Shown piece by piece: positions 1-41,277 of a stretch of DNA of 64,000 nt. The stretch comes from a virus (lineage: Duplodnaviria > Heunggongvirae > Uroviricota > Caudoviricetes). The notes beneath the pieces were generated by a model. It ran no database searches and was not told where the DNA came from. It saw nothing but the letters and a program-made list of their open reading frames with translations. Location: IMG/VR virus record IMGVR_UViG_3300032046_000009; one strand, given 5' to 3'. Within the stretch, counting starts at the first letter, position 1. Every line of letters begins with the position of its first letter. A program made the position numbers and the translations under genes.

Positions 1-26
1 TAGAACAGGAACTATGAAGTCAAATA

Positions 27-101
27 GGTAGTATATAAGGGTTTCGGTATAGGGTAGTATATAAACGTTTCGGTATGGCGACCTATATAAAGGTTGTGGT
101 C
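27..101 (-). repeat. three tandem ~25-bp units, each with a TATA-like box
   Basis: units at 27-50, 52-75, 77-101; third matches class I core tatataaaggttgtggt. Confidence 0.6.
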
Positions 102-351
102 AACCGAAAGTTGAACTTCTGGGGGTAACTGTCTGGGGTGTAACGCACATAGGTATATATTAAGTTAAAATTTGTTTTTCCGCTAAGTTTGCAAGTCAAA
201 AAAAGAGGGAGTTTTATCGGTTCTGTTCGAGCAGTTCAAAAAATCGCTTATTAAACAGTTTGCCGAGATTTCCTTTTAATTTCGGTTGTGTCCGAATTCG
301 TCTTTTTTGTTCCATGATTATCACCAAAAAAACAAAAAGGGGGTAGGGGGG

Positions 352-612
352 TTAATAGCCGTATTTGTTGTTTAATTCGGTTCTGAATTGCTCTTTTTCT
401 GTTTCGGTCAAAGCGTCCGTCTTTTCTAGCAGTTTATGTATGACGGTTTCGAAGTCAAATTTCTCCCATGTTCTGTTTACGTAGCATACTTTAGCCTTTT
501 CGTATTCATTGCCATTTTTGAACAGCCTTGCATCATGTCTAAAACCGCTTCTTGTGCTCACAAATTCACAGAGTATTTCTGTGGTTTCATTCACTTTAAA
601 GATTCTTGCCAT
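352..612 (-). CDS. hypothetical small protein
   Basis: track 352..618; ATG 5 nt after leader AAGGACGTG; promoter just upstream. Confidence 0.6.
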   Translation of the reverse strand: MARIFKVNETTEILCEFVSTRSGFRHDARLFKNGNEYEKAKVCYVNRTWEKFDFETVIHKLLEKTDALTETEKEQFRTELNNKYGY

Positions 613-660
613 TTTCACACGTCCTTAATACCTATATGTCAGCGTCCCTTATAAACCTTT
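613..660 (-). promoter_or_regulatory. class I promoter cassette (BRE/TATA + AAGGACGTG leader)
   Basis: minus strand aaaggtttataagggacgctgacatataggtattaaggacgtg; TATA 649-656. Confidence 0.6.
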
Positions 661-943
661 AGGTGTTCGTTAATCCATAGCGATATTTGGCGTTAATGGT
701 TTGAATCACCTTAATAGCTGAGGCTTCAGGTTGAATAACCTGAACTTTACGGTATGCTAAAGCTATAAAGGTCTGACATTCACAGCATAAAACTTCGCAT
801 ACTTCTAAGTTGCTGTCAGGAACCGCTTCCCATGTGGTTTTTAGTTGTGCCTTTTTGTGCTCGCATGGGTTCTTATCTATGTCACGGTATCCGTCCATAA
901 CTTTTAGATAAGCGAAATATTCTTGTTGTTCTAGTTCGTCCAC
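659..943 (-). CDS. hypothetical Cys-containing protein
   Basis: track 659..949; GTG 5 nt after leader; TATA 981-988. Confidence 0.55.
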   Translation of the reverse strand: MDELEQQEYFAYLKVMDGYRDIDKNPCEHKKAQLKTTWEAVPDSNLEVCEVLCCECQTFIALAYRKVQVIQPEASAIKVIQTINAKYRYGLTNT

Positions 944-1033
944 GTTCACACGTCCTTAACTATAGTAATAGCATCGCCTCTTATAAAGGTTTGCCTAAAA
1001 TCGGAAAGTTTATATACTAGAAAAAAGGGTTGT

Positions 1034-1264
1034 TTAGAGTTGCTGTTCTTCAATGGCTTTTTCTCTGAGTCTAGCGATGAGTCTAAGATGTAGCTGTTCG
1101 ATTTGTTCAGGGTAGAGGTAAACAAAAGACTCTTCAATATCGGATTCGCTGAAAGCTATTGCCCCGTTGTCGTATTCGATAAGTTCAACTATGCTTGTGT
1201 TTGCCCCACAGCATCGATGACGCTTATTTACTAACTTAGTTCGACATTTTACATTATCTTTCAC
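1034..1264 (-). CDS. hypothetical protein
   Basis: track 1034..1321 runs through its own TATA (1301-1310); trimmed to GTG after leader. Confidence 0.5.
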   Translation of the reverse strand: MKDNVKCRTKLVNKRHRCCGANTSIVELIEYDNGAIAFSESDIEESFVYLYPEQIEQLHLRLIARLREKAIEEQQL

Positions 1265-1317
1265 TTTTCCACGTCCTTGTAATATAGTATAGCACCGACC
1301 TATATAAACGTTGCTAC

Positions 1318-1497
1318 TCAAAATTGAGTTCTGATGTCGGCGAATCTCGGTTGTCTCAGCCTAAACGCTCTTGTGAATGTAAAACCCTGTCTCGTGAGTT
1401 CAGCCCTCATATTTTCAACATTATGACCGCACAGTAAAAGCGTAGCTGTCCCGTGTGCCTCTGTTCGTGTTCCCGTAACGTAAAATAGCTGTGCCAT
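1318..1497 (-). CDS. hypothetical 59-aa protein (not in track)
   Basis: ATG after GGTGA; TATA 1529-1536; stop TGA inside TTGAGTAGC promoter element. Confidence 0.45.
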   Translation of the reverse strand: MAQLFYVTGTRTEAHGTATLLLCGHNVENMRAELTRQGFTFTRAFRLRQPRFADIRTQF

Positions 1498-1557
1498 ATT
1501 TTCACCAATAGCATATAGGCATCGTAGCTTATAAACCTTTACCTAAAAACCGAAGGT

Positions 1558-1665
1558 TTATAAAGGACGACCACAACAAGCGCAAAACGGTTTTGTGTGA
1601 ATCAAAGTTTTACCGTAACCTATTGATTCTTCAACATATCGCCATATAACCTTATTTTTCTCCAT
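1558..1665 (-). CDS. hypothetical 35-aa protein (not in track)
   Basis: ATG 5 nt after AAGGACGGTG leader; hand translation. Confidence 0.3.
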   Translation of the reverse strand: MEKNKVIWRYVEESIGYGKTLIHTKPFCACCGRPL

Positions 1666-1892
1666 TTTGTCACCGTCCTTAATCAGTTGATTAATTGGTG
1701 AGGCTTACGGATTCGCACCGTCAAACCCGAACCTACGCGAAGTTTGCACCTTCGCACGATTTGAGGCTTCGGTTTATAAGTCCTCGCCTCGCCTCTTCGG
1801 TTGTGCACCGAGTTCGCTACCGAGTAGAGCAAGTCCTCAATAGTATAATAGTACCGTCCTTTATAAAGGTTTCTGTACTAAAGTGTACGCAA

Positions 1893-1945
1893 AGGTTTAT
1901 ATACCCGTGTGCTATAGTAGTATTAGGGACGGTGGCGACACGAAT
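1893..1945 (+). promoter_or_regulatory. plus-strand copy of the class I promoter cassette
   Basis: gcaaaggtttatatacccgtgtgctatagtagtattagggacggtgg read on plus strand. Confidence 0.5.
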
Positions 1946-2086
1946 CGGATATTACATGGACACGAATGCCATGAGTTCGGTTGCACCACGAGTTGAACTT
2001 TTGGTGTTCCGAAAAAATAATAGAAAAAAGGTGTCGGGAGTCCCGTTTAGTGTTTTGCACTTTTTTGGGTTATCCGTCTTTACGCT

Positions 2087-2164
2087 CTACCGTTCATCGA
2101 CTTACACTCCTATCGAACGTTTCGAACCGTTCTACCGTTCATCGGTAAGCACTCCTATCGAGCG
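2087..2164. repeat. 33-bp direct repeat, two copies 45 bp apart
   Basis: ctaccgttcatcgacttacactcctatcgaacg / ctaccgttcatcggtaagcactcctatcgagcg; ggctaattgtccct x2 follows. Confidence 0.7.
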
Positions 2165-2663
2165 TGTGTCAGAAGGCTAATTGTCCCTTTGTTAAGGGCT
2201 AATTGTCCCTCGTCCTTGTGAGGCTTCACGAGTTCGCCGTCTTGGGTCGCCCGCGCCTCAATAATATACTATGTCAGCGTGGTATATAAACCTTTCTCAA
2301 TTTGTGATTATAGAAAGTTGAACTATTGTCCCTTGCTTATAAAGGTTTCGACTTAATCAGTTGATTAAAAAATGCCAAATTCGCCGTTCCGCTTCGCCGT
2401 ACCGTTCCATCAATACCTACGATGTTTCCGAATTTCGTGATGAAAAGTGGGCAACTGTGATTGAAAAGCATGGGAAAAGACCATACCTACACGTCTGTTC
2501 ACGATTCATCACAATGGGAGCTATGGGAAAAAAGCATGGTATTGTGGTGAATAGTGAGCAACTGTGTATTGTGTGGCTAAACGAAAAATTCTCTAAGTTT
2601 TCAGTTAATAGAAAGTTGTACTAAAAAAAGAAGGGAAAGTTGCACCGTCTATATCACGGTGGT

Positions 2664-2897
2664 TTAACTCCACAGGCGCACCACAAGTCTGTTTACCGTT
2701 GCAAACTCTGGGTTGACCACGTTAGTTATCCCTGCAAGTTTAACTATTTCGCCGATTATGGTTATTCTTGCAGTTGTTCCGCAGTTGATACATTCGCTTG
2801 TACGCTGTGGTAGTCTCGCAGTTGCACTTTTTATAGCCTTCACGGATTTAACTATCGTGTGGTGTCTGCATTTGGGACAATTTCCGAAATATTCCAT
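2664..2897 (-). CDS. small Zn-ribbon protein
   Basis: CPKC...CINC; TAATG overlap with upstream gene. Confidence 0.6.
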   Translation of the reverse strand: MEYFGNCPKCRHHTIVKSVKAIKSATARLPQRTSECINCGTTARITIIGEIVKLAGITNVVNPEFATVNRLVVRLWS

Positions 2898-3490
2898 TAT
2901 TCATTCACCTCTTTATTAGTTGTATAGTAGTCTAGTGAGTTAGGGCTGACGGTTGCACTTTTGATTATCTTTATTATTCGTTTCGCTCTTATATAATCTA
3001 TGTGTCCGTGTTTGCCCTTATATACTACAGGAACCGTTAGACTTCGAATCCCGACCCGTTTTAAGAGCCTTCTACGCAATGCGTCACGTCTTACGACTAA
3101 AAGGTAATTCTTGTGCCAATTTGGGCTTATTTCTATGTCAATTTGGGTCTTAGGGTCAAAGAAGTCTAATTTGAAAATGTGCCAGCGGTTGCACCTATCC
3201 TTAACTTTTATGCGTACCTCATGGTTCAACTCTAGGTTAAAGTCGTCCACTAATCTCTTGAATTGTGCCTCTAAATGGGTAAATACGTTAGGATTACGCT
3301 TAGAATTCAATTTCCAGCAATTTCCAAAGCCCTTTCCTTTAGCCTTGCCTTTTTCACAGTCCTTATAGTGTTTAAAGAATTCTAAGAACTGCACTTGTGA
3401 TTCTAGGCTTAAATCGAAGAGTCCGATAACGTCCGTGTCCTCTAGTTGTGTTAAGTGTTCGCATATTACGCTAAGTTGTAAGTGTTCCAC
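2897..3490 (-). CDS. hypothetical protein, weak PD-(D/E)xK / DUF559-like C-terminus
   Basis: 197 aa; GTG 5 nt after leader; D..IEI..H..R..L..G pattern only suggestive. Confidence 0.6.
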   Translation of the reverse strand: MEHLQLSVICEHLTQLEDTDVIGLFDLSLESQVQFLEFFKHYKDCEKGKAKGKGFGNCWKLNSKRNPNVFTHLEAQFKRLVDDFNLELNHEVRIKVKDRCNRWHIFKLDFFDPKTQIDIEISPNWHKNYLLVVRRDALRRRLLKRVGIRSLTVPVVYKGKHGHIDYIRAKRIIKIIKSATVSPNSLDYYTTNKEVNE

Positions 3491-3564
3491 GTTCGCACGT
3501 CCTTCAATACTATAATGTCAGCGTCCTATATAAACCTTCGCATTAAAAAAAGAAGGGAATTGTT

Positions 3565-3858
3565 TCAAACGAAATACGGATGTCCGTTTATGCTTATCAG
3601 TTGACTCTTCTGTGAGCATATCCGCTTTAAATCTTCGCCGTATTTAAGTATTTGTTCAGGAGAAACCACGGTTGAACTTTCGATTATCCAAATTTGCACG
3701 TTGTCCAGATACAATTTTCCGTTGTCCAGCCATAGACCCTCACAGTTGTTAATGATAGTTAAACCGCCGAATGCACCGCACAGTTGAACTTTCACAGCAT
3801 CCAATTTCGTTTTATCTGGGTTCTCAGTTGTGACCACGTAGATTTTTATTTCTACCAT
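3565..3858 (-). CDS. hypothetical protein
   Basis: 97 aa; ATG 5 nt after AAGGACGTG; TATA 3895-3902. Confidence 0.6.
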   Translation of the reverse strand: MVEIKIYVVTTENPDKTKLDAVKVQLCGAFGGLTIINNCEGLWLDNGKLYLDNVQIWIIESSTVVSPEQILKYGEDLKRICSQKSQLISINGHPYFV

Positions 3859-3894
3859 CTTTCCACGTCCTTAATAGTGTAATAGCACCGTGAC

Positions 3895-4416
3895 TTATAA
3901 ACCTTCGCTTTTTTTGGTAAACTTAGCGAATTTTGAGATAACGCTCTGCTGTAGCTCTAGCTGTGCATCTATTGTACATGTCCCGATAAACTCACAATAG
4001 ACCCACTCGTTTATCGTTTCTTGTATCAATTCCAACACTAGAGGGTCTGGATTATTATCAAGCAATTCATTTATTGCTGTTTTCCAAGCATAAACCTCTT
4101 GTTTCAGCAAAAATTCTCTATCGTATGACAGGCAAAATTCGGCAATATCCATATTAGGGTAAAGCGTTTGATATACGATAATATGTCCTATTTCGTGATT
4201 CAGAATTAACGCTTTTACCTTATCAGGTATTGAACCATAACCATTAATATAATTAGTTGAATAGTTCTTAGTTCCAATAATGATTTTTCGCTCAGGGTAA
4301 AATGAAGCCTTCGAATGATTCCAGCTTAGGATATAACTGTACTCGATACGGAAACCTAGTTTTTGCGCTAAGTTTTCAAGTCGTGTCAATTCATCCTTAT
4401 CGTTCAAATGTTCCAC
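3895..4416 (-). CDS. HExxH metallopeptidase-like protein
   Basis: LNHEIGH motif; tandem TATA boxes 4441-4453 and 4479-4486. Confidence 0.6.
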   Translation of the reverse strand: MEHLNDKDELTRLENLAQKLGFRIEYSYILSWNHSKASFYPERKIIIGTKNYSTNYINGYGSIPDKVKALILNHEIGHIIVYQTLYPNMDIAEFCLSYDREFLLKQEVYAWKTAINELLDNNPDPLVLELIQETINEWVYCEFIGTCTIDAQLELQQSVISKFAKFTKKSEGL

Positions 4417-4504
4417 GTCCTTAAAGATGATATAACACCGTCCTTAATAAAGAGTTCTATGGTTTTTCTTGTAATAGGTATATAAACCTTTCGCTCTGTT
4501 CGAA

Positions 4505-4800
4505 CCTGTCCGTGCCAGCGATACCCAAAAGGACTGTATATCAAACCCGTTTGTCAAAAACAAGCCCTGAGCATGTCGTTCGGACGAATACGCTCAATTC
4601 CCTTTATATTTGCTCAACGATATTGAGCGAGCAAGCCCCGTTTAGTCGAATAAGGCTAAATCGTGGAGTTCGGGTCTATGTTAGGCATGGTCAATTCAAC
4701 ATCAGTCCTATGGTAACTATGGTTCGATGACGTTCGTTTAGCTAAATCAGCCTTAGAGCTAGTCATCGCGGCGAGTTCGAATCTATAAGATGCCTCTATT
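4505..4800. ncRNA. candidate noncoding RNA locus, paralog of 19105-19400
   Basis: ORF-poor; shared blocks cccaaaggactgt, cctgagc, aacgatattga, catcagtcctatgg. Confidence 0.4.
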
Positions 4801-5871
4801 AACTGATTCCGCCTCAAATCGGGGTCCGATGATGTGTAGCTAAAGTGTATCTGTGTTCTACAACTAAAAGCAAACGTTTATATAGGACGCTGAGAACGTA
4901 GTATTTGGCGGCGGCGGTTCGCGTTAAGCGTATATTACATAGTTACGCATCTTATGAATTCAGTTGCACTAAAAGTTCAACTTTGGGTTGCCTCTCTCCC
5001 GTGTCTTGCGTCAAGCTACTAGCAGATACGCACAGCCCTATATAAACCTTCCTATTAAAGTGTAGAACAGAGATACAATAGGAACCTTTATATACCTCGC
5101 TATCCTCTTCTCAGCGCGCCTCAAATCGTGCTTCGTTTGGCTAATCCGCCTCGATTCAGCCCTAATTGAACATGGTTGTTCTAGGCAAACATTTATAAGC
5201 AACCATGCCTTTTATATGGTATGTATCGAAAGACGTGATTAAACCCAGAGTTGTACTTTATGGTTCGAATTTTGCTAAGTTTGCACATATATAAGCAACC
5301 GATAGGTTTAAATAGCTACTATATAAGGCTATCGGCGATACGCTTAAATAGGGGGTATATAAACGTTTTGGTCTAGCACAACTTCTAGTGTAACAAAAAG
5401 TGCAACTTTTGGGGTAACGCCTCGGCTAACAGGAAATTGTCCGTAGAATGCAACTGAGAATGTCACATAAGCGCACATAGGCGTTTTTTTGATTCCAATT
5501 ATTTTCTGGTCAGAGCTTCCACGCCGTCCGTTTTACCTGTCGGTTTGCCCTGCTTAATCACCTGATTAAAAGTTCTCCACAGTTCCGCGAGCCTTTCGGA
5601 TAATAAAGTCACCGTTTGCCAAAACGTCTTTTTTTCAGGGCTATTTTGGCATTCAGGGGAGCTAGAGGGGGGGGACTTGTTTATAATGGGGTATTAATCA
5701 GTTGTTTAAAATAGAGCTATAGCACTATGTCAGTCAGCACGTTGTCGTATGCCAACTATTCACTCCATAGACCCTTTACGTATGACAACCCTTTTCTTTA
5801 CGTATGTAAAGGTCATCAGTATCTTTTATCGAGCATTTCTTTTATCCATGTACTCCACTTTTTAGCTATTC

Positions 5872-6040
5872 TGGGGGTCTAGTACCACTTTTAGGGGTCT
5901 TTTGAGGGGTATAGGGAGTCATCTAGGGGGTTAGTGATTAGAGGTCGTTAGGGGTTCGTGGTTAAGGGGGTCGGACGGGGGTTCTCTGGGGTTCGGGAAT
6001 TTACTTAACAATTTCTGTTAATGGTTAGGGGGGTCGGGGT
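5872..6040 (+). repeat. G-tract iteron array (about 10 runs of G4-G6)
   Basis: taggggtc, gaggggta, tagggggtt, ttaggggttc, taagggggtcgg, acgggggttc, ctggggttcgg, ttaggggggtcgggg. Confidence 0.75.
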
Positions 6041-6389
6041 AAAGGGTGCATGTGGCATGAGAGAGCCTGTTACGAGCTACGATTCGTTAATCAGTTGATT
6101 AAAAGTTCGGGTTTGCCTGTGTCGCCTTGCTACGGGCTTGGCAGAACTTGGGTCAGTCTGGGTTGACTAGGTGAAATCAAAAAGTGTTAAGGATTCTTAA
6201 CAAAAATTGTCTAAGTTTGCAGAGGGTAAAAGAGGGGGTTTCGAGAGAGGTTAGAAGGAATGAGTAGAACGGGCGAAGGGAAAGCGCGAGAAAGGACGGT
6301 GAAAAAATGGAACAATATCCCTTCGCCCTTGATAGAGTAGTATGTCAAACGGGTATATAAAGGTTGTGGTAGAAAGACCATGCTCGAAT

Positions 6390-6608
6390 CTAGTGTTCGA
6401 CTTTATAGATTCCATAGAGCAGTACCAATATTCCAACAGGGACACCCAAAAATAGAAGCGGTGAAAATAGCGCACCAAAAGTAGCAGAAAAAGCGAAAAT
6501 GAAAATTCCACCCAGAATTGCCCCTATACTTTGGGTTAGAGGGTCACGTATGACTTCGATGGTTCTTGTGTAGAGCCACTTAAAGAATCCTATTTTTTGC
6601 TTGACCAT
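6390..6608 (-). CDS. small membrane protein
   Basis: track 6390..6617; hydrophobic stretches; ATG 5 nt after AAGTGA; TATA 6643-6650. Confidence 0.55.
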   Translation of the reverse strand: MVKQKIGFFKWLYTRTIEVIRDPLTQSIGAILGGIFIFAFSATFGALFSPLLFLGVPVGILVLLYGIYKVEH

Positions 6609-6671
6609 CTTGTTCACTTGATAATAACAACAACACCGAGCTATATAAAGGTTTCCTAAGAACGTCCATGC

Positions 6672-6809
6672 TCAAAATTCAATGTGAACTTTGAGTATTC
6701 CAGAAAGTATTAGAGCTATTACAACTACGAAAAAGGCTATCGGGGCAAATGCCATGATTATGCCAGCGTTCTCTTTTACTTTCTTAATCACGGTTTTTAG
6801 TGTTATCAT
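6672..6809 (-). CDS. 45-aa membrane protein (not in track)
   Basis: hand translation; one TM; stop TGA in TTTTGAGCATGG element. Confidence 0.4.
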   Translation of the reverse strand: MITLKTVIKKVKENAGIIMAFAPIAFFVVVIALILSGILKVHIEF

Positions 6810-6982
6810 TTTAGACCACTTAGATTAGCGCGGAACACGGACGATTCTCCAATAAGCGTCCATCACTCGTCAGCTAAGGACGTAGTTTGGAAACCTTGTT
6901 TCCGTGCTCATACGAGTAATACAATAATCAAACAACTATATAAAGATTGTGGTAGAAACATCATACTCAAAAAAAGAGAGTT

Positions 6983-7162
6983 TTAGAGAAATTGTTTATT
7001 CTCTGTCCGTATCTGAATGTCAATGTCCGTAACGAGTATTTCAATGCTGTCTATGTTTTGTTGTTTCTTGCGTCTTTTAGTCTTTACGGCATCTTTTAAG
7101 AGCTTTATGACGTATCGAGCTTGTTTCGGGGTTATTTTGACCTTAAACTCTTTGTCTATCAT
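6983..7162 (-). CDS. 59-aa basic protein (not in track)
   Basis: ATG 3 nt after stop of 7166..7513; hand translation. Confidence 0.45.
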   Translation of the reverse strand: MIDKEFKVKITPKQARYVIKLLKDAVKTKRRKKQQNIDSIEILVTDIDIQIRTENKQFL

Positions 7163-7165
7163 GGC

Positions 7166-7513
7166 TTAAGCGTCCTTCAAGTAAAGCGTATATCCGACTG
7201 AGAACCATCCCGTTTGGCAGAAGCCAATAATAACGGTTTCTCCGCGCGTTTCGCACTCTTTTATCTTGTCTTTCAGCAATTCGGTCATTGCTTTCGGGTC
7301 TGTTCCAGATTCACCCATAGTTGCTATCCATCCAGAATGAAGGTGTTCATTTTGAAGCCCTGTGCCTGAACGGGTCGTAATTTTGTCGTCATTTCCTAGT
7401 TCAATAGCGTGGTAGCCCCGTTTCTTTGCCAGCGCGTCTAATCTGTCATAGTCTTGGAAAACATTGCAATGGACGGGTGGGAATTTGTCTTTTGATGTTA
7501 GGAAGTTCTTCAT
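7166..7513 (-). CDS. hypothetical protein
   Basis: 115 aa ORF, co-oriented, 11-nt gap to upstream gene. Confidence 0.65.
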   Translation of the reverse strand: MKNFLTSKDKFPPVHCNVFQDYDRLDALAKKRGYHAIELGNDDKITTRSGTGLQNEHLHSGWIATMGESGTDPKAMTELLKDKIKECETRGETVIIGFCQTGWFSVGYTLYLKDA

Positions 7514-7524
7514 TGCTCAGTCAC

Positions 7525-7914
7525 CTATTGATGTCCGTCTTGAATATTCTGGAAAACTTCAATGAATCCGTGCATGTGAACGGCACACGCGAATAACTCA
7601 TAGATTCCATAGTATGACGCAAAGTTGTCATAACCAACACCCGAATCTACGAAGATTCTGGGTCGCTTTTGGACATTGCCCTTCTCTGTGAGTCCCGCTA
7701 GAACAACGACACGTTTTTCTGGGTTCTTTAGAAGATATTTTTCTAATTGTTCTCTTGCCTCTTTGCCGAAGTTGTCCTCAATGTTCGCTAGGTTCAAGTA
7801 TGTCAGCTTAGAGTATCGTTCAGATGGTTGTGCTGGATATTGGTTTTCGAGCCATGACTCTGAGGGTTTAACGTTCTTCGATGTCAGCTTTTCCTTTAAC
7901 TCTTGTAACTTCAT
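7525..7914 (-). CDS. hypothetical protein
   Basis: 129 aa; AAGGTTGAAACT-ATG leader; TATA 7949-7956. Confidence 0.65.
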   Translation of the reverse strand: MKLQELKEKLTSKNVKPSESWLENQYPAQPSERYSKLTYLNLANIEDNFGKEAREQLEKYLLKNPEKRVVVLAGLTEKGNVQKRPRIFVDSGVGYDNFASYYGIYELFACAVHMHGFIEVFQNIQDGHQ

Positions 7915-7985
7915 AGTTTCAACCTTTGAAGAGTAGTGTTCGCCGTCCTATATAAAGGTTCGCTAAGAACGAACGTGCTCAAAAT
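7915..7985 (-). promoter_or_regulatory. class I promoter cassette with distal TTGAGCACG..TTCTTAGCG element
   Basis: plus strand cgccgtcctatataaaggttcgctaagaacgaacgtgctcaaaa. Confidence 0.6.
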
Positions 7986-8149
7986 TTTAGGGGGGTCTTG
8001 GCTAGTGCGTTTCGCCGTGACCCTAGTTTTATTTAATGTAGAGGTTGAAATTTGCCCTATGTCGTATCGCACCGCATAAGGATTTTTCAACGTGCGGAAT
8101 AGACATATACACACCGAAGTATATAAACTTTCGCTAAGAACAACCATAC

Positions 8150-8533
8150 TCAGAGAGGAATAACACCTAGCCATTTATAAACTTCGGTGTTAATTTCAGC
8201 CATACCCGAACCCGTCCATACGTTGTGAGGAATAGAAGTATGAAGAGACTCTGGAATGAAAATAACGTGTGATTTATCGATGTGGTGTCCTTCTGAACCG
8301 TTAAAAGGTGCGTTTAGAATAATAGAGCCTAATTCTCGGCGTTTAGCTTGAATCCTAGCTTGCGTTTTCTTGTGATAAATTCGATGTTCTCTCTCATATT
8401 TTCTCTCATAGTTTGGGTTTTCTAATCTCCATTTCCTCTTATATAACTTTACCTCTTTCTTATGTTTCAAACGCCAATTCTTGTAATATGTAATACGTTT
8501 TTCTCTTGAATCTGTGAGCGTCATTTGATTCAC
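8150..8533 (-). CDS. His-rich nuclease-like protein, paralog of 9378..9704
   Basis: shared KRRELG and GHHID..VIxIPxxLHxSIxHxVWTGxGMAEIN. Confidence 0.65.
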   Translation of the reverse strand: MNQMTLTDSREKRITYYKNWRLKHKKEVKLYKRKWRLENPNYERKYEREHRIYHKKTQARIQAKRRELGSIILNAPFNGSEGHHIDKSHVIFIPESLHTSIPHNVWTGSGMAEINTEVYKWLGVIPL

Positions 8534-8579
8534 ATTAAACTAAATGTTAAACGTGCTTATAAAGGTTTCGGTAAAAGTT

Positions 8580-8830
8580 AGTTGGAACACGGGGGAGAGT
8601 GTGCCCCCGTGTTCTCGGACGTGGTTTGTGGTTTTTTGTCAGTTGAAGCACAAGTTGGTGGAATGCCCCGTGTACGGGACAAACCTTCGGTCTTGTGCGG
8701 TTCCGTTCTTTGTCGCTTATTTCGAACGTAACCCTAGCGACTATGAAGGGTCGGCAAGTTTGTGAGCGTATAGCTCTTTGGTCTTGCGCGCCCTTTGTTT
8801 AGACGCAAGCGCGTCATGTATTATTGAGAT
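8580..8830 (-). ncRNA. candidate GC-rich structured RNA
   Basis: TATA 8841-8848 fires leftward; no minus ORF; perfect 11-bp hairpin gaacacggggg/cccccgtgttc 8585-8614. Confidence 0.45.
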
Positions 8831-8870
8831 GTCAAACGACTATATAAACTTTTCGGGAGAAAGACCATGT

Positions 8871-9254
8871 TTATTGTCTGGGTTTGTTTGCCCTTTCTCT
8901 AAAATCGTCTGTTTCTTGTTGTGTGAAAACTTTATCAATAGCTGGAAGTCTATCGCTCTTTACATAACCATGTAAAAGGTTTCTCTCTTCTACATATTCA
9001 TTATCGCTTTCAGCGTTCAAGTTGTGAGAAATAGCTGATAAACTTTCGTATGGAAGAATTCGGTTTAATACTTCATAAATTGCAACTTCATTGAATTCGT
9101 GAACGAACAACTCAGCACCAATATCATCAGCGATTATACTGTCAATGGAATAGATAACTTTGGTAATTTTAGTATCATATCTTGAAATAGTCCCAGAAGC
9201 CAAAGCTGTTCCATCGAGTTCAGCGTTATCGAAGTAAATTTTCTCCGTGTTCAT
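8871..9254 (-). CDS. hypothetical protein
   Basis: track 8871..9266; ATG 6 nt after GGTGA beside palindrome 9267-9282. Confidence 0.6.
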   Translation of the reverse strand: MNTEKIYFDNAELDGTALASGTISRYDTKITKVIYSIDSIIADDIGAELFVHEFNEVAIYEVLNRILPYESLSAISHNLNAESDNEYVEERNLLHGYVKSDRLPAIDKVFTQQETDDFRERANKPRQ

Positions 9255-9282: not shown

Positions 9283-9331
9283 TCAGTACAGCGCGCTATA
9301 TAAAGTTTCGCCTAGAACGTCCATGTTCGAG

Positions 9332-9377: not shown

Positions 9378-9704
9378 TTATGTGGTAAGCCATTCGAAAA
9401 CTTTATCATTTATTTCTGCCATACCCTGACCTGTCCAAACGCAATGATGAATAGAAATATGAAGTTCTCTGGGAATATAGATAACACATTCAAAATCTAT
9501 ATGATGAGCAACAGAGCCAATAAATCTCCCATTAAAAGGGTCAAACCCTAATTCTCGCCGTTTTGCATTCTTCATTTTAGTTCGCTCTGGGTGTTTTTTT
9601 CCCCACATTTTTATTTGTTCTCGTTGTCTCTTTTTTTGTGATTCAGTTTTCTCTTTTATTTCAACGTCAAAATTTCCAATAGACTTTAATCGCATCTGAA
9701 TCAT
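9378..9704 (-). CDS. His-rich nuclease-like protein, paralog of 8150..8533
   Basis: VAHHIDFECVIYIPRELHISIHHCVWTGQGMAEIN; class II TATA 9730-9737. Confidence 0.65.
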   Translation of the reverse strand: MIQMRLKSIGNFDVEIKEKTESQKKRQREQIKMWGKKHPERTKMKNAKRRELGFDPFNGRFIGSVAHHIDFECVIYIPRELHISIHHCVWTGQGMAEINDKVFEWLTT

Positions 9705-19104: not shown

Positions 19105-19400
19105 AACTGTGCCCCGAAGTAGTGTCCCCCAAAGGACTGTGGATAATGCCCGACTCTCAATTTCATCCCCTGAGCGTTCTCTTCGGGGCAAATCGTTCAA
19201 TAATTTCGAACATATATAAACGATATTGAACGAGTGTCCTTCTTTTGTTCGAAGAGGCTCAAATAATGCTTTTCGACCAATGGAAACGATGTTAAAAAGA
19301 CCATCAGTCCTATGGAATCTGGGTTTCGTTCGGGTTCGTTTTGGAAAATCAGTCTTGGAAAACGGCAACGCGCAGACTTCGAATGTAAAGGCTTCGAGTT
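19105..19400. ncRNA. candidate noncoding RNA locus, paralog of 4505-4800
   Basis: 10-bp long-range pair gccccgaag/cttcggggc (19112-19193); no credible ORF. Confidence 0.4.
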
Positions 19401-19544
19401 TTGAAATTAATCATTTGATTAAATAAGCTCAACAGTTCGCATCGTGCCTCGGCGTGAAGGGGCGTGAAGCAGTTAATCACCTGATTAATTAAATGCGCCT
19501 CGCACCGCGTCCCGTTTGGCAAAAGCGACCATTGTGAAAGCTGT

Positions 19545-19620
19545 GCTGGAAATTGAGCATGGCGTTTTTAGGGAAAGATTTATAAGCTACCGTGTTGTAG
19601 TATTCACAAAGAGGCACAAA
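19545..19620 (+). promoter_or_regulatory. full class I promoter cassette on plus strand
   Basis: ttgagcatggcgtttttagggaaagatttataagctaccg read on plus strand. Confidence 0.55.
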
Positions 19621-19621
19621 T

Positions 19622-19753
19622 ATGTTTCCGTTTGATACTCTGGGTTTCATAATAGGTTTAATTGTTCTTGCAAAAGTAGTTAAAACTTTCAGGCGACCCG
19701 TTGGTTGTCCCGACCCGTCAGAACTTGAGGAAGCACTAGAGGACGAAGGCTAG
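19622..19753 (+). CDS. 43-aa membrane protein (not in track)
   Basis: ATG after AGAGGCAC; one TM; hairpin + T-run 19825-19845 downstream. Confidence 0.45.
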   Translation: MFPFDTLGFIIGLIVLAKVVKTFRRPVGCPDPSELEEALEDEG

Positions 19754-20028
19754 GTCACACTTTCGGTGTAACTTTCCGTCCCCTCGAAAATTAAATTTTT
19801 AGTAGAATCCTGAGTGTCACATAACGCACATAGGCGTTTTTTCTTCCCAATTAGATTTCGGTTTATGGTGAAGCCCTCTGCCAGCCCCCAACGTATTCCC
19901 CAGACTTTTAATCAACTGATTAAAAAAGCACCGACTTCAGGCTTCAGTTCCCATTGGCTTCGCCCTAGCATCCAGAACGTCTTTTTCCCTAGTCTATTTA
20001 CCTGTCAAATGTAGCTAGGGGTAGGGGA

Positions 20029-20154
20029 CTAATCGAACCGAACTTTCTCTTTTTGTTTATACAATAGTTTTAGACATTCGGGACAAAAAAGTGCACGACT
20101 TCCAGCGAAGGGTTTGCAGAACCAAAGTTTTCCACATCTAAAACATTCTATCAT
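20029..20154 (-). CDS. 41-aa Zn-ribbon protein (not in track), last cassette of array E
   Basis: CFRCG..CPEC; ends EKVRFD + TAG; abuts G-rich hub. Confidence 0.5.
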   Translation of the reverse strand: MIECFRCGKLWFCKPFAGSRALFCPECLKLLYKQKEKVRFD

Positions 20155-40265: not shown

Positions 40266-40481
40266 CTATGAGTATCGCTGGTTTGCATGGACTTCTCCAT
40301 GCCGAAGGTCATAAAAGGAACTATTTTAATCAGTTGATTAAACATTCGGTTTCCATGACCAGCAGGGTTGGGAGCTTTTTTGGCACTTCGAAAAATTTCG
40401 AAAGCCATTCTCTCCATACAAACATCCCCAACCAGCAAAAAAGTGATGGTCATTTGCGAGACCTGTAAAAATTATCTGCCT

Positions 40482-40614
40482 CGAAATTTGCTCGTTTTCG
40501 GAAATTCGACTCAGTTCGAAACTCACCCTATGGGAAATTTTCTCGGTGGGAAAGGGCGGGAGCCAAATCGCCCCGAAATTTGCTCGTATTGCCGAGTTCG
40601 ATTCAGTTCGGGGG
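40482..40614. repeat. about 41-bp direct repeat, two copies
   Basis: cgaaatttgctcgttttcggaaattcgactcagttcgaaac / cgaaatttgctcgtattgccgagttcgattcagttcggggg. Confidence 0.7.
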
Positions 40615-41088
40615 TCAGATGGCTTTTTTCCACCCCCTCGGCTCCATGCCCCAAACTTTTAATCAGTTGATTAATAACTACCGAAAGGTTTATATGGTGC
40701 AACTCGTATTATATAAGGAAGAGTTGAACTTTCAATGACACAGAAAGTTACACTAACCGTAACCTCGAAAGTGACCCAGACGGAAACACGGAAAAGGGTA
40801 ACGCAGAAAAACCTTTAGGAAAAAACCATCGGTCACACTTTTTGAAACCACATACCCACACATAGGCGGCGCGCAGGCGAAAATTTGATTTTGGTCGGCG
40901 AACTTTGTGATTTCTGTTATGATTGTTATTTTGGTATTATTTTTATTTCCTATTTCCTGAGCATTTCGATTTAGATTTACTAAGGATTCGAGAAAAGAAA
41001 ATAACTGAAAACGTCTTTTTTTCAGGGAGTTTTGAACGTCTAGGGGAGCTAGGGGTAGGGGACTATCCCAGAGAAAGTTGGTATATGC

Positions 41089-41277
41089 TCAGAAGGAAGC
41101 GGGTGGCGGGGAAGCTGTTGTAATAAAGTCTGGGCACTTGCCATTCTCCTTTATTGCCTGAACGATAAGGTCGTTTACTGGAATACGCTTGCAGTATTCT
41201 TCCCTTAAACATTCCTTACATTTTGCACGTTCCTTTATCTCTTCAAATGGTATCTTATTCACCACCCTTATTGCCAT
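41089..41277 (-). CDS. small Cys protein, last gene of array N
   Basis: 62 aa; CKEC..C..C; abuts G-rich hub. Confidence 0.55.
   Translation of the reverse strand: MAIRVVNKIPFEEIKERAKCKECLREEYCKRIPVNDLIVQAIKENGKCPDFITTASPPPASF

What the first reader, a model, noticed from the sequence alone, without database searches (positions are those of the whole stretch)
5872..6040. Dense G-tract iteron array, strictly on the plus strand
About ten runs of G4-G6 occur in about 170 bp, mostly in the context TAGGGG(K)TC. They sit in the largest ORF-free region of the window (about 4450-6390) in an otherwise AT-leaning sequence. Related G-blocks recur at hub ends and at 7988-7998 (ttttaggggggtc). This could be an iteron-type origin or initiator-binding array; archaeal origin recognition boxes carry a G-string. 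It could also be a G-quadruplex-forming element or a packaging signal.
Basis: partly seen in the sequence, partly recalled or inferred. Interest (0 to 1): 0.6.

Follow-up and report, generated by a model that had tools for sequence, protein, structure and literature searches.

The report
Strand-biased G-tract cluster between converging genes
A real, conserved cluster of G-runs, all on one DNA strand, lies in a non-coding control region of a large uncultured virus or plasmid that probably infects archaea; it most likely acts as a barrier between two transcription units that run toward each other, not as a replication origin, but its function is unproven.

Summary
There are ten G4-G6 runs on the plus strand in 5873-6039, against 0.22 expected, and no C3+ run. 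This is the highest G4Hunter score and the only canonical quadruplex motif in the 64 kb. The cluster lies in the largest ORF-free stretch.

The element is a >=167 kb uncultured replicon with archaeal-type BRE/TATA promoters and almost all genes on the minus strand. The array is internal.

Five relatives keep the array, always with the same strand polarity and the same conserved ends, but with 3-10 units. Four of them carry an HNH endonuclease gene inside it, and in those the main block starts about 20 nt after the HNH stop codon. Array alleles are shuffled as cassettes.

The array lies between two predicted converging transcription units. Shorter G-blocks close the antisense units of two paralogous hubs, next to the stop codons of converging genes.

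The tests for an ORB or iteron origin fail: no dyad, no inverted arrangement, no AT-rich unwinding region, no initiator gene found among the ORFs scanned, no regular spacing, no skew step.

Best reading (about 0.3): a G4-prone barrier that pauses or terminates transcription. A sequence-specific protein-binding array is nearly as likely. The function has not been tested.

The parts
5873..5997 (+). Main block of the G-tract array (block B): 8 runs of G4-G5 plus degenerate units (GAGG at 5942, GGGAG at 5914, GGG at 5995). On the sense strand it reads CAGAGAACCCCC ... GACCCCCAGAATAGCTAAAAAGTGG.
   Evidence: Homologous blocks with conserved ends are present in L006, L008, L009, L012 and L031.
6028..6048 (+). 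Minor block of the array (block A): GGGGGG-TC-GGGG-TAAA-GGG. In relatives it lies upstream of the inserted HNH gene.
   Evidence: The L012 homologue is ACCCTTTATCTCGACCCCCTAACC.
5966..5997 (+). The only canonical G-quadruplex motif (G3+ tracts, loops of 7 nt or less) in the 64-kb window: GGGGGTCGGACGGGGGTTCTCTGGGGTTCGGG.
   Evidence: G4Hunter maximum of 2.08 at 5966-5991.
6005..6021 (.). Empty site of the HNH endonuclease cassette. TTAACA-ATTTC-TGTTAA is a small palindrome between blocks A and B. In L008, L009 and L012 a 134-140 aa HNH gene with its own BRE/TATA sits at the equivalent position, and in L012 it is bounded by TTAACAC ... GTGTTAA; L031 carries a 119-aa copy whose upstream flank is different (IS-derived).
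   Evidence: the HNH assignment comes.
5859..5863 (+). T5 tract, 10 nt before the array. It is the predicted oligo-T terminator of the plus-strand unit that starts at the 5679 promoter.
   Evidence: Relatives have CTCCACTTTTGGGGGG here. This is a prediction; there is no RNA data.
5679..5709 (+). Plus-oriented TATA-like box (TTTATAAT, 5679-5686) followed 7 nt later by the operator palindrome TTAATCAGTTGTTTAA (5694-5709). This predicted promoter points toward the array.
   Evidence: The arrangement is conserved in L008, L009, L012 and L031.
6087..6108 (.). Operator palindrome TTAATCAGTTGATTAA plus AAAGTTC on the other side of the array. A third copy lies at 5554-5575.
   Evidence: D3, D12; 25 copies in the window against 0.09 expected; invariant in all relatives.
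6179..6206 (-). Two T5 tracts on the sense strand (6202-6206 and 6179-6183) around a GTTAAG/CTTAAC hairpin. These are the predicted end of the sense non-coding unit that converges on the array.
6210..6391 (-). Composite sense promoter (6348-6391; TATA at 6354-6361) and a conserved pyrimidine-rich non-coding unit. The unit contains an invariant 11-bp hairpin (6270-6329, core 6271-6328) whose loop is conserved (32 of 36 nt invariant) in all relatives.
   Evidence: D1; 6082-6388 is 93.8% identical to L008.
5655..5676 (+). The standard hub-end G-block of hub A (CAGGGGAGCTAGAGGGGGGGGACT), 20 nt after a T7 tract. Paralogous blocks lie at 20016-20029 and 41041-41067.

Best explanation
The array is a conserved, strictly strand-asymmetric, quadruplex-prone spacer. 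It occupies the gap between two transcription units that run toward each other inside a non-coding regulatory hub of a large virus or plasmid with archaeal-type promoters. One predicted unit starts at a plus-strand promoter with an operator (5679-5709) and should end at the T5 tract at 5859. The other is a sense unit coming from the opposite side: the 6361-promoter non-coding unit in this window, or an HNH endonuclease gene in relatives. I propose that the G-tracts act as a transcription barrier, that is, a pause, termination or insulator element. Polymerase that leaks past the T5 tract on the plus strand would make G-rich RNA over a C-rich template, which favours R-loops and a quadruplex on the displaced strand. 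Polymerase arriving on the sense strand would meet a G-tract template and make C-rich, G-poor untranslated RNA, the kind of substrate the archaeal termination nuclease aCPSF1/FttA cuts at CA/CC. Under this model the number of tracts matters and their exact geometry does not, which fits the observed unit turnover. Shown here: position, polarity, conservation, cassette behaviour, and G4 propensity in silico. Inferred: that the promoters and T-tracts work, that the region is transcribed as predicted, that a quadruplex or R-loop forms, and that it stops polymerase.
For: (1) Polarity is absolute in the window and in all five relatives. A mechanism tied to transcription direction predicts this for an element whose genes all point one way. 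(2) Position: the array lies between a plus-strand T5 (5859) and sense-strand T5 tracts (6179, 6202), with promoter-like sites pointing inward from both sides. In L008, L009, L012 and L031, block B begins about 20 nt after the stop codon of the converging HNH gene. (3) The antisense-oriented units of two paralogous hubs also end with a T-run followed by a G-block that abuts the stop codon of a converging sense gene: 1 nt away at 20029 and 27 nt away at 41089. (4) The array has the highest G4Hunter score and the only canonical PQS in 64 kb. G4-compatible tracts persist in L006, L009 and L012. (5) Unit number varies from 3 to 10, spacing is irregular and unphased, and single G-runs mutate about as often as spacers between the window and L006. 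The block as a whole is nevertheless kept, and within an allele type it is more conserved than its flanks: 96% against 84% and 62%, and 87% against 79% and 74%. (6) aCPSF1/FttA cleaves exposed nascent RNA at CA/CC after translation ends (review PMC8501993). Recurrent intergenic PQS near gene ends in methanogens have been proposed to act in transcription initiation or termination (PMC8044849).
Against: There is no expression data, so every promoter and terminator here is a motif prediction. The three hubs are paralogous copies of one module, so the T-run/G-block association is not three independent observations (binomial p = 0.005 only if they are treated as independent). C-blocks after stop codons are not a general terminator signal in this element: only 3 of 31 long intergenic gaps have one. 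The invariant A before every sense C-run and the high within-allele conservation of spacers as well as tracts fit sequence-specific protein recognition better than a purely structural role. If the flanking T-tracts terminate efficiently, the array is not transcribed at all, which would point instead to a DNA site that is being shielded from transcription. G4-dependent termination has not been shown in archaea, as far as I know.
Confidence: 0.3

Rival explanations
1. A homotypic cluster of binding sites for a sequence-specific DNA-binding protein, not used as an origin. It could be a partition (centromere-like) site, a packaging or condensation nucleation site, or a regulatory platform. The protein would bind head-to-tail to the roughly 10-nt unit TTAGGGG(G)TC. 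The site would be kept free of transcription by the converging terminators on both sides.
For: The motif carries information outside the G-run: T after every G-run (10 of 10 against 40 of 72, p = 0.005) and frequent TC and TA flanks. GGGGKTC is over-represented window-wide (19 against 5.5 expected). Within an allele type the whole block, spacers included, is more conserved than its flanks. In relatives the units sit about 10-11 nt apart (output). Uniform orientation is typical of cooperative head-to-tail binders. The array is flanked by terminator-like tracts and by operator palindromes.
Against: No candidate binder or partner gene (ParA, ParB, TerS, TerL, RHH, wHTH) was recognised in the neighbouring ORFs. 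Spacing in the window is irregular and helical phasing is not significant (p = 0.25). Copy number varies 3-10, and two very different allele types (57% identity) are interchangeable. A 480-bp gene can split the array. Single G-runs are lost between near-identical strains.
Confidence: 0.25
2. A replication origin. Either the units are iterons or ORB-like sites for an initiator encoded elsewhere on the element, or the plus-strand promoter at 5679 makes a G-rich transcript that forms a persistent R-loop or quadruplex over the array and primes DNA synthesis, as at mitochondrial CSBII or ColE1.
For: It lies in the largest non-coding region, roughly in the middle of the >=167-kb span covered by overlapping contigs. 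It consists of direct repeats of one polarity. A conserved promoter lies about 190 nt upstream and points into a G-rich block. Haloarchaeal ORBs end in a G-string that is essential for origin function (PMC4010727). Plus-strand GC skew is near 0 left of about 9 kb and clearly negative to the right.
Against: There is no ORB dyad and no inverted arrangement around a DUE. No AT-rich region lies next to it. No Orc1/Cdc6, MCM, primase or Rep was detected in the 29 window ORFs scanned. Genes keep the same orientation on both sides. Third-codon GC skew shows a noisy gradient and no step at the array. Unit number and spacing are not conserved. A predicted T5 terminator sits between the promoter and the array. 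Similar G-blocks occur at two other hubs.
Confidence: 0.1
3. No function of its own. The array would be a fast-evolving low-complexity tract created and reshuffled by slippage, unequal crossing-over and co-conversion around the insertion site of a mobile HNH homing-endonuclease gene.
For: The HNH gene is present or absent exactly at this place. Recombination breakpoints fall at the HNH/array border: L008 and L009 are 94% identical in HNH but 57% in the array. The window and L006 are 98-100% identical in the flanks but 82% in the 5862-6244 cassette. The window array is a composite with a duplicated AAAAGTGG end. Several assemblies break in or near the hub.
Against: The block keeps its polarity, its two ends (CAGAGAACCCC ... 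AAAAGTGGAGTA) and at least 3 C-tracts in every relative, even though flanking proteins are only 64-80% identical. In a 38% GC genome, C4+ runs occur about 0.15 times per 100 nt, so the tracts would decay if neutral. Within an allele type the array is more conserved than the adjacent coding sequence.
Confidence: 0.12
4. A functional RNA element. One option is that the C-rich sense transcript pairs with purine-rich (Shine-Dalgarno-like or G-rich) sequences. The other is that the G-rich plus-strand transcript, with up to ten AGGGGGU-type motifs, mimics Shine-Dalgarno sites or titrates an RNA-binding protein.
For: Strand asymmetry is what an RNA-level element would show. Neighbouring conserved non-coding units look like small RNA genes with their own promoters and T-tract ends. 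Start codons in this element are preceded by GGTGA-type motifs.
Against: There is no Rfam match even at E <= 5. The adjacent plus-strand unit has no conserved secondary structure (consensus energy -1.4 kcal/mol). Predicted terminators lie before the array on both strands. Unit number and sequence are too variable for a defined RNA.
Confidence: 0.08

Closest known systems
G-rich pause or termination elements downstream of 3'-end signals (for example MAZ-type G5AG5 pause sites after poly(A) signals; mitochondrial CSBII G-tracts that stop the LSP transcript). Comparison from my own knowledge, not tested here.
   Same: G-runs lie on the non-template strand a short distance downstream of the primary 3'-end signal (here a T-tract). 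They act strand-specifically, and they are prone to quadruplex and R-loop formation.
   Different: Those are eukaryotic or mitochondrial systems with one or two G-blocks. Here there are ten, in an archaeal-type mobile element, at a junction of converging units. No termination activity has been shown.
Recurrent intergenic potential quadruplex sequences of Methanomicrobiaceae (PMC8044849)
   Same: Both are archaeal, intergenic, close to the ends or starts of coding sequences, and G4-capable. A role in transcription initiation or termination has been suggested for those sequences.
   Different: Those repeats are dispersed single PQS, each with an adjacent 10-12 nt C-rich tract that allows hairpin or triplex alternatives. 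This array is a local cluster with no C3+ run on the G strand, and it is specific to one locus of a mobile element.
Archaeal origin recognition boxes with a G-string (PMC4010727)
   Same: Both have a G-run of 4-6 in a defined orientation as part of a repeated element in a large intergenic region.
   Different: An ORB has a dyad core bound by Orc1/Cdc6, occurs in inverted copies around an AT-rich unwinding element, and sits next to an orc1/cdc6 gene. None of these features is present here.
Plasmid and phage iterons and centromere-like repeat arrays (ParR/parC, omega heptads). Comparison from my own knowledge.
   Same: Both consist of many short direct repeats of one polarity in a non-coding region, and copy number can vary.
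   Different: Those arrays have regular spacing (11 or 22 bp, or contiguous heptads) and an adjacent rep or par operon. Here spacing is 6-42 nt, no such genes are recognisable nearby, and a gene can split the array.
Herpesvirus 'a' sequence DR2 arrays. Comparison from my own knowledge.
   Same: Both are strongly G/C strand-asymmetric short repeats that are variable between strains, recombinogenic and prone to non-B DNA structures.
   Different: DR2 is a perfect tandem repeat at the genome termini next to the pac signals. This array is internal, imperfect, and not linked to terminase genes.

Membership tests
Archaeal ORB / mini-ORB origin | Repeat unit contains the dyad-symmetric ORB core next to the G-string | tested here: not met
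   The units share only (T)TA-GGGG(G)-T(C/T). No common dyad appears in the unit listing or in the alignments.
Archaeal ORB / mini-ORB origin | ORBs in inverted orientation flanking an AT-rich unwinding element (PMC4010727) | tested here: not met
   All units lie on one strand. The highest 50-nt AT content within 500 nt is 0.70, which is the 90th percentile of the window.
Archaeal ORB / mini-ORB origin | Adjacent orc1/cdc6 initiator gene | tested here: not met
   None of the 29 window ORFs scanned, including all 16 ORFs of 150 aa or more and the array's main neighbours, has a Cdc6/Orc1 domain match. The rest of the >=167-kb element was not available.
Iteron-type origin | Direct repeats of about 17-22 bp at regular, helically phased spacing | tested here: not met
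   The core is about 8-11 nt and spacings are 6, 42, 10, 11, 16, 24, 21, 12 and 20 nt. The phasing test gives p = 0.25. TRF reports only 2 x 12 bp.
Iteron-type origin | Origin activity (initiation of DNA synthesis) | not testable with these tools
   This needs marker-frequency data or a replication assay. The third-codon GC skew gives only a noisy gradient with no step at the array.
G-quadruplex-forming sequence | Four or more G3+ tracts with short loops; G4Hunter score of 1.5 or more | tested here: met
   PQS at 5966-5997 with loops of 6, 6 and 3 nt. G4Hunter is 2.08 (25-nt window) and 1.22 averaged over the whole array, both the window maxima.
G-quadruplex-forming sequence | Quadruplex potential conserved at the homologous site in relatives | tested here: inconclusive
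   There is a canonical PQS in L012 and PQS with loops of 12 nt or less in L006 and L009. There is none in L008, and L031 was not scanned. This could be a by-product of keeping the C-tract motif.
G-quadruplex-forming sequence | Folding in vitro or in vivo | not testable with these tools
   Needs CD, NMM, polymerase-stop or G4-seq assays.
Archaeal intrinsic (oligo-T) terminator | T5 or longer tract on the transcribed strand | tested here: not met
   The array itself has no T5+ or A5+ run. The T5 tract at 5859-5863 lies just outside it. If the array helps termination, it does so as an accessory element.
Centromere-like partition site | Repeat array next to a parA/parB-type or parM/parR-type operon | tested here: not met
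   No ParA-type, ParM-type or RHH family hits in the neighbouring ORFs scanned or in the larger ORFs of the window.
Phage pac/cos packaging site | Location in or next to terminase genes; genome ends map there | tested here: inconclusive
   No terminase gene is adjacent; one weak TerL-like PHROG hit lies 21 kb away. Several contigs end in the hub, but at different positions (window 5247 twice, about 5478, about 5125, about 5835), while the 137-kb contig spans it (sequence seen in L006) and the 152-kb contig's length implies that it does. That pattern fits assembly breaks at repeats or strain variants better than physical ends.

The most novel reading that the evidence does not exclude
The array is a working non-B-DNA device in an archaeal mobile element. 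On this reading, a block of G-tracts forms quadruplexes or R-loops that stop RNA polymerase at the junction of converging units. Alternatively, the G-rich transcript from the conserved 5679 promoter forms a persistent hybrid that primes replication, as at mitochondrial CSBII. Either would be the first such element described for an archaeal virus or plasmid, as far as I know.
Probability: 0.15. Interest if true: 0.7.

Novelty: new variant of a known kind. Interest (0 to 1): 0.4.

Why it matters
If the barrier reading is right, this would be a compact, portable, strand-specific terminator or insulator for archaeal transcription that works without, or in addition to, an oligo-T tract. It would also be direct evidence that quadruplex-prone DNA has a regulatory job in archaeal mobile elements. 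The locus also marks a densely organised, well conserved non-coding control hub (operators, antisense units, a strongly conserved hairpin, a mobile HNH gene) in a >=167-kb uncultured lineage that has no relatives among sequenced phages. If the array is instead only a variable repeat next to a homing endonuclease site, it is ordinary.

Tried and rejected
1. DNA similarity to 50,697 phage records, with the hub in distant mode and 24 kb in near mode: no match. tblastn with two ATPases found only remote hits or none.
2. IMG/VR scans with two flanking proteins, the conserved non-coding 22-mer and the promoter pattern: no relatives.
3. The single metagenome scan with the 22-mer found only 2 JGI contigs. 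Other relatives came from protein look-ups.
4. The genome-collection scan with the promoter pattern gave 12 single hits, which I estimate to be about the chance level. Only a Bathyarchaeota MAG contig looked meaningful, and it shares no proteins with the window.
5. Rfam at gathering threshold and at E <= 5: nothing. No tRNAs.
6. Coding explanation: no ORF of 40 aa or more crosses the array.
7. Tandem-repeat explanation: TRF is essentially negative.
8. Helical phasing of the units: not significant.
9. I first thought that composition explained the GGGGTC strand bias. That was wrong, because the sense strand is G-rich. The motif is over-represented (19 against 5.5) and plus-biased even outside the array. 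This is unexplained.
10. The idea that C-blocks after stop codons are a general terminator signal is rejected: only 3 of 31 long gaps have one.
11. Physical genome end at the hub is rejected: contig ends scatter and long contigs span it.
12. The 59-aa neighbour as an RHH-type binder: no support from PDB or PHROG searches.
13. A structured RNA in the plus-strand unit 5700-5872: no consensus structure.

Full report
**Observation.** The sequence at 5872-6040 is as described. On the plus strand there are ten runs of G4-G6 between 5873 and 6039. The whole 64-kb window has 82 such runs, so 0.22 are expected in 169 nt (Poisson P = 5e-14). The next densest cluster has four runs. Inside the array the plus strand has no C run of three or more, and composition is G 41% and C 11%, against 38% GC overall. 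Units read roughly (T)TAGGGG(G)T(C/T); on the other strand this is GA(A)CCCC(C)TA. The base before each sense-strand C-run is A in 10 of 10 units, against 40 of 72 elsewhere (p = 0.005). The array is not a clean tandem repeat (TRF finds 2 x 12 bp only). Spacings run from 6 to 42 nt with no significant helical phasing (p = 0.25). No ORF of 40 aa or more crosses it. It lies in the largest stretch of the window free of any ORF of 60 aa or more (4731-6250).

**What the element is.** Nearly all ORFs are small and on the minus strand. There is no DNA match to sequenced phages and no tRNA or Rfam hit.
- The octamer TTTATATA occurs 27 times on the sense strand and 5 times on the other. On the sense strand it is usually preceded by an A-rich BRE-like stretch and a conserved upstream element (TTGAGCATGG, 16 nt before the box).
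- Where a start codon is evident, it follows 24-37 nt later, often with a GGTGA-type motif. This is the archaeal BRE/TATA layout with very short leaders. It does not fit sigma-70 spacing.
- One exact match to the composite promoter lies beside an integrase-like ORF on a Bathyarchaeota MAG contig. This is a weak hint about the host.
- Exact protein look-ups place the window on ENA and Logan metagenome contigs of 86, 137 and 152 kb. Their overlaps imply a replicon of at least 167 kb with the array far from either end.

**Relatives.** Homologues of the downstream 173-aa protein (a PHROG metallo-protease) and of an HNH endonuclease gave five informative relatives: L006 (a strain-level variant), L008, L009, L012 (which equals L028 and L030) and L031.
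- All keep C-tract units of the same polarity at the same place. The ends are conserved (CAGAGAACCCC ... CCCC(C)AAAAGTGGAGTA), and each carries 3-7 tracts against 10 in the window.
- In L008, L009, L012 and L031 a 119-140 aa HNH endonuclease gene (PHROG HNH families, best E = 1e-6) sits inside the array; in L008, L009 and L012 it has its own BRE/TATA. In the window the equivalent site is the small palindrome at 6005-6021. The main block then starts about 20 nt after the HNH stop codon.
- Array alleles behave as cassettes. L008 and L012 share one type (87% identity; HNH 79%). L009 and L031 share another (96% identity; HNH 84%, downstream 62%). L008 and L009 have 94% identical HNH genes but arrays only 57% identical.
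- The window and L006 are 98-100% identical in the flanks but 82% identical across 5862-6244. The window array looks like a composite of both allele ends.
- The block is therefore maintained, and within an allele type it is better conserved than its neighbours. It is also reshuffled by recombination, plausibly by co-conversion around the mobile HNH gene.

**Surroundings.** The region 4450-6390 is a dense non-coding hub.
- A 16-bp palindrome, TTAATCANNTGATTAA, occurs 25 times in the window against 0.09 expected. At two sense promoters (TATA at 9304 and 14325) it lies 13-17 nt downstream of the TATA box, as an operator would. Three copies (5554, 5694, 6087) bracket the array and are conserved in relatives.
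- On the plus strand a TATA-like box with the palindrome (5679-5709) points at the array. A T5 tract lies at 5859-5863, 10 nt before the first G-run.
- From the other side, the strong sense promoter at 6361 drives a pyrimidine-rich non-coding unit that is 94% identical to L008, whereas the 173-aa flanking protein is only 77% identical. This unit contains an invariant hairpin (6271-6328) and ends at two T5 tracts (6202, 6179).
- The array therefore occupies the gap between two predicted converging units. In relatives the converging unit is the HNH gene itself.

**Other hubs.** Two other hubs (about 19400-20030 and about 40300-41090) are paralogous modules. Each has a plus-oriented promoter; in hub B it precedes a 43-aa membrane-type ORF. 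Each then has T-runs and finally a G-block (CTAGGGG..GGGGACT) that abuts the stop codon of the converging sense gene, 1 nt and 27 nt away. Hub A has the same block at 5655-5676. The array is an additional, expanded element of the same polarity after a second plus-strand unit.

[quoted passage not shown] Here:
- the units have no dyad and all point the same way;
- no 50-nt window within 500 nt exceeds 70% AT, which is the 90th percentile of the window;
- no initiator-type domain was found in the 29 window ORFs scanned;
- gene orientation does not change across the hub;
- third-codon GC skew shows a noisy gradient and no step.

Iteron criteria (unit length, regular spacing, adjacent rep gene) also fail. 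An origin is not excluded, but nothing tested supports it.

**Quadruplex potential.** The array holds the window's highest G4Hunter score (2.08; mean 1.22 over 169 nt) and its only canonical PQS on either strand (5966-5997). G4-compatible tracts are present at the homologous place in L006, L009 and L012 but not in L008. This could be selected for, or it could simply follow from keeping the C-tract motif.

**Interpretation.** The facts that most constrain a mechanism are these:
- absolute strand polarity in an element whose genes all point one way;
- position at a junction of converging units, directly after a stop codon when the HNH gene is present;
- recurrence of shorter G-blocks at equivalent junctions in other hubs;
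- tolerance of changes in unit number and spacing, combined with retention of the block.

Together these fit a transcription barrier (an element that pauses, terminates or insulates) better than a geometrically precise protein-binding origin. Plausible physical bases are a quadruplex or R-loop when the G-rich strand is the non-template strand, a G-tract template block in the other direction, and C-rich untranslated nascent RNA as a substrate for aCPSF1/FttA, which cuts at CA/CC (PMC8501993). Recurrent intergenic PQS near gene ends in methanogens have been discussed in similar terms (PMC8044849).

I give this reading about 0.3. A sequence-specific protein-binding array with another role (partition, packaging or regulation) is almost as likely, at about 0.25. 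It is favoured by the flank specificity, the window-wide excess of GGGGKTC (19 against 5.5) and the within-allele conservation of spacers. An origin (0.1), a neutral repeat linked to the HNH site (0.12) and a functional RNA (0.08) remain possible.

**Caveats.** All promoters and terminators are motif predictions, and there are no expression, replication or binding data. The three hubs are paralogous, so their shared layout is not independent evidence. C-blocks after stop codons are not general in this element (3 of 31 long gaps). Only six distinct alleles were available, from a rare lineage.

**Verdict.** This is a real, highly non-random, conserved and strand-asymmetric G-tract cluster. Its G4 potential is confirmed in silico and the origin reading is unsupported. 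It is most likely a transcription boundary element or a protein-binding platform in a regulatory hub of a novel large replicon with archaeal-type promoters. It is moderately interesting as a new variant of known kinds of element. The hub as a whole deserves more attention than the array alone.

Noticed in passing
window-wide, e.g. 6636-6679, 7943-7986, 36617, 40235, 58722, 60838 (minus strand): A composite promoter, TTGAGCATGG-N16-TTTATATA(GGACG). TTTATATA occurs 27 times on the sense strand and 5 times on the other, with evident start codons 24-37 nt downstream. It looks like an archaeal BRE/TATA box plus a conserved upstream element, possibly an activator site.
   Followed up: partly
25 sites, e.g. 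1679, 2353, 5554, 5694, 6087, 9267/9332, 14285/14357, 19407/19473, 28191/28249, 36217/36268, 40326/40659: The 16-bp palindrome TTAATCANNTGATTAA occurs 25 times against 0.09 expected. Copies often come in pairs 50-70 bp apart and at two promoters lie just downstream of the TATA box. It is also present in distant relatives (L032, L033). It is probably the operator of a global repressor of the element.
   Followed up: partly
hub A 5150-5680, hub B 19380-20035, hub C 40300-41075: Three paralogous non-coding modules share the blocks CACATAGGCG-T6/7, AACGTC-T5/7-CAGGG and CTAGGGG..GGGGACT, all antisense to the genes. Hub B encodes a 43-aa membrane-type ORF (19622-19753, +).
   Followed up: partly
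6271-6328 (minus strand): An invariant 11-bp hairpin (GGGCGAAGGGA / TCCCTTCGCCC). Most of its 36-nt loop (CCATTTTTTCACCGTCCTTTCTCGCGCT) is identical in all relatives, even though flanking proteins are only 64-80% identical. It lies just downstream of the 6361 promoter. Its function is unknown.
   Followed up: partly
window 6005-6021; L008 536-958, L009 5942-6364, L012 2369-2773, L031 4001-4360: Presence/absence polymorphism of an HNH endonuclease gene (free-standing, with its own BRE/TATA, in L008, L009 and L012). In L012 it is bounded by the 7-bp inverted repeat TTAACAC...GTGTTAA. Mosaic flanks suggest homing with co-conversion. Possible divergent paralogues in the window (8150-8533, 9378-9704), judged from shared sequence motifs only; they gave no PHROG or Pfam HNH hit.
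   Followed up: partly
5290-5370; L012 3280-3480; L006 13380-13500; L007 9090-9220: Tandem runs of BRE/TATA-like boxes about 25-40 nt apart, some interleaved with C-tracts and with no ORFs behind them. They could be decoy or multiple promoters, or very short RNA units.
   Followed up: no
window 5247 (ends of L003 and L004), about 5478 (L007), about 5125 (L010), about 5835 (L014): Independent assemblies break inside the hub, two of them at exactly the same base, while longer contigs span it. Repeat or strain-variant graph breaks are more likely than physical genome ends.
   Followed up: partly
3895-4416 (minus strand): The first gene downstream of the hub has an HEIGH motif and matches PHROG 87 (metallo-protease). 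I take this to be ImmA/IrrE-like, from my own knowledge. That would fit the hub being a genetic-switch region.
   Followed up: no
L031 2035-3467: An IS200/IS605-type pair (Y1 transposase plus a TnpB/Cas12f-like protein) is inserted just upstream of the HNH gene in one relative.
   Followed up: no
window-wide: GGGGKTC occurs 19 times against 5.5 expected. Outside the array it is 9 on plus and 4 on minus, and GGGGTC is 12 against 2, although the plus strand is the G-poor strand. This is unexplained.
   Followed up: partly
L026 1918-1951 (Bathyarchaeota MAG contig PLSP01000108.1): An exact match to the composite promoter, with a similar spacer, an AAGGTGA motif and an ATG at the usual distance, lies next to an integrase-like ORF. 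It is a possible related mobile element and a hint about the host, but it shares no proteins with the window.
   Followed up: partly
window 1-9000 versus 9000-64000: Plus-strand GC skew is about 0 in the first 9 kb and -0.1 to -0.3 beyond, although gene orientation is the same. Third-codon skew shows only a noisy gradient.
   Followed up: partly
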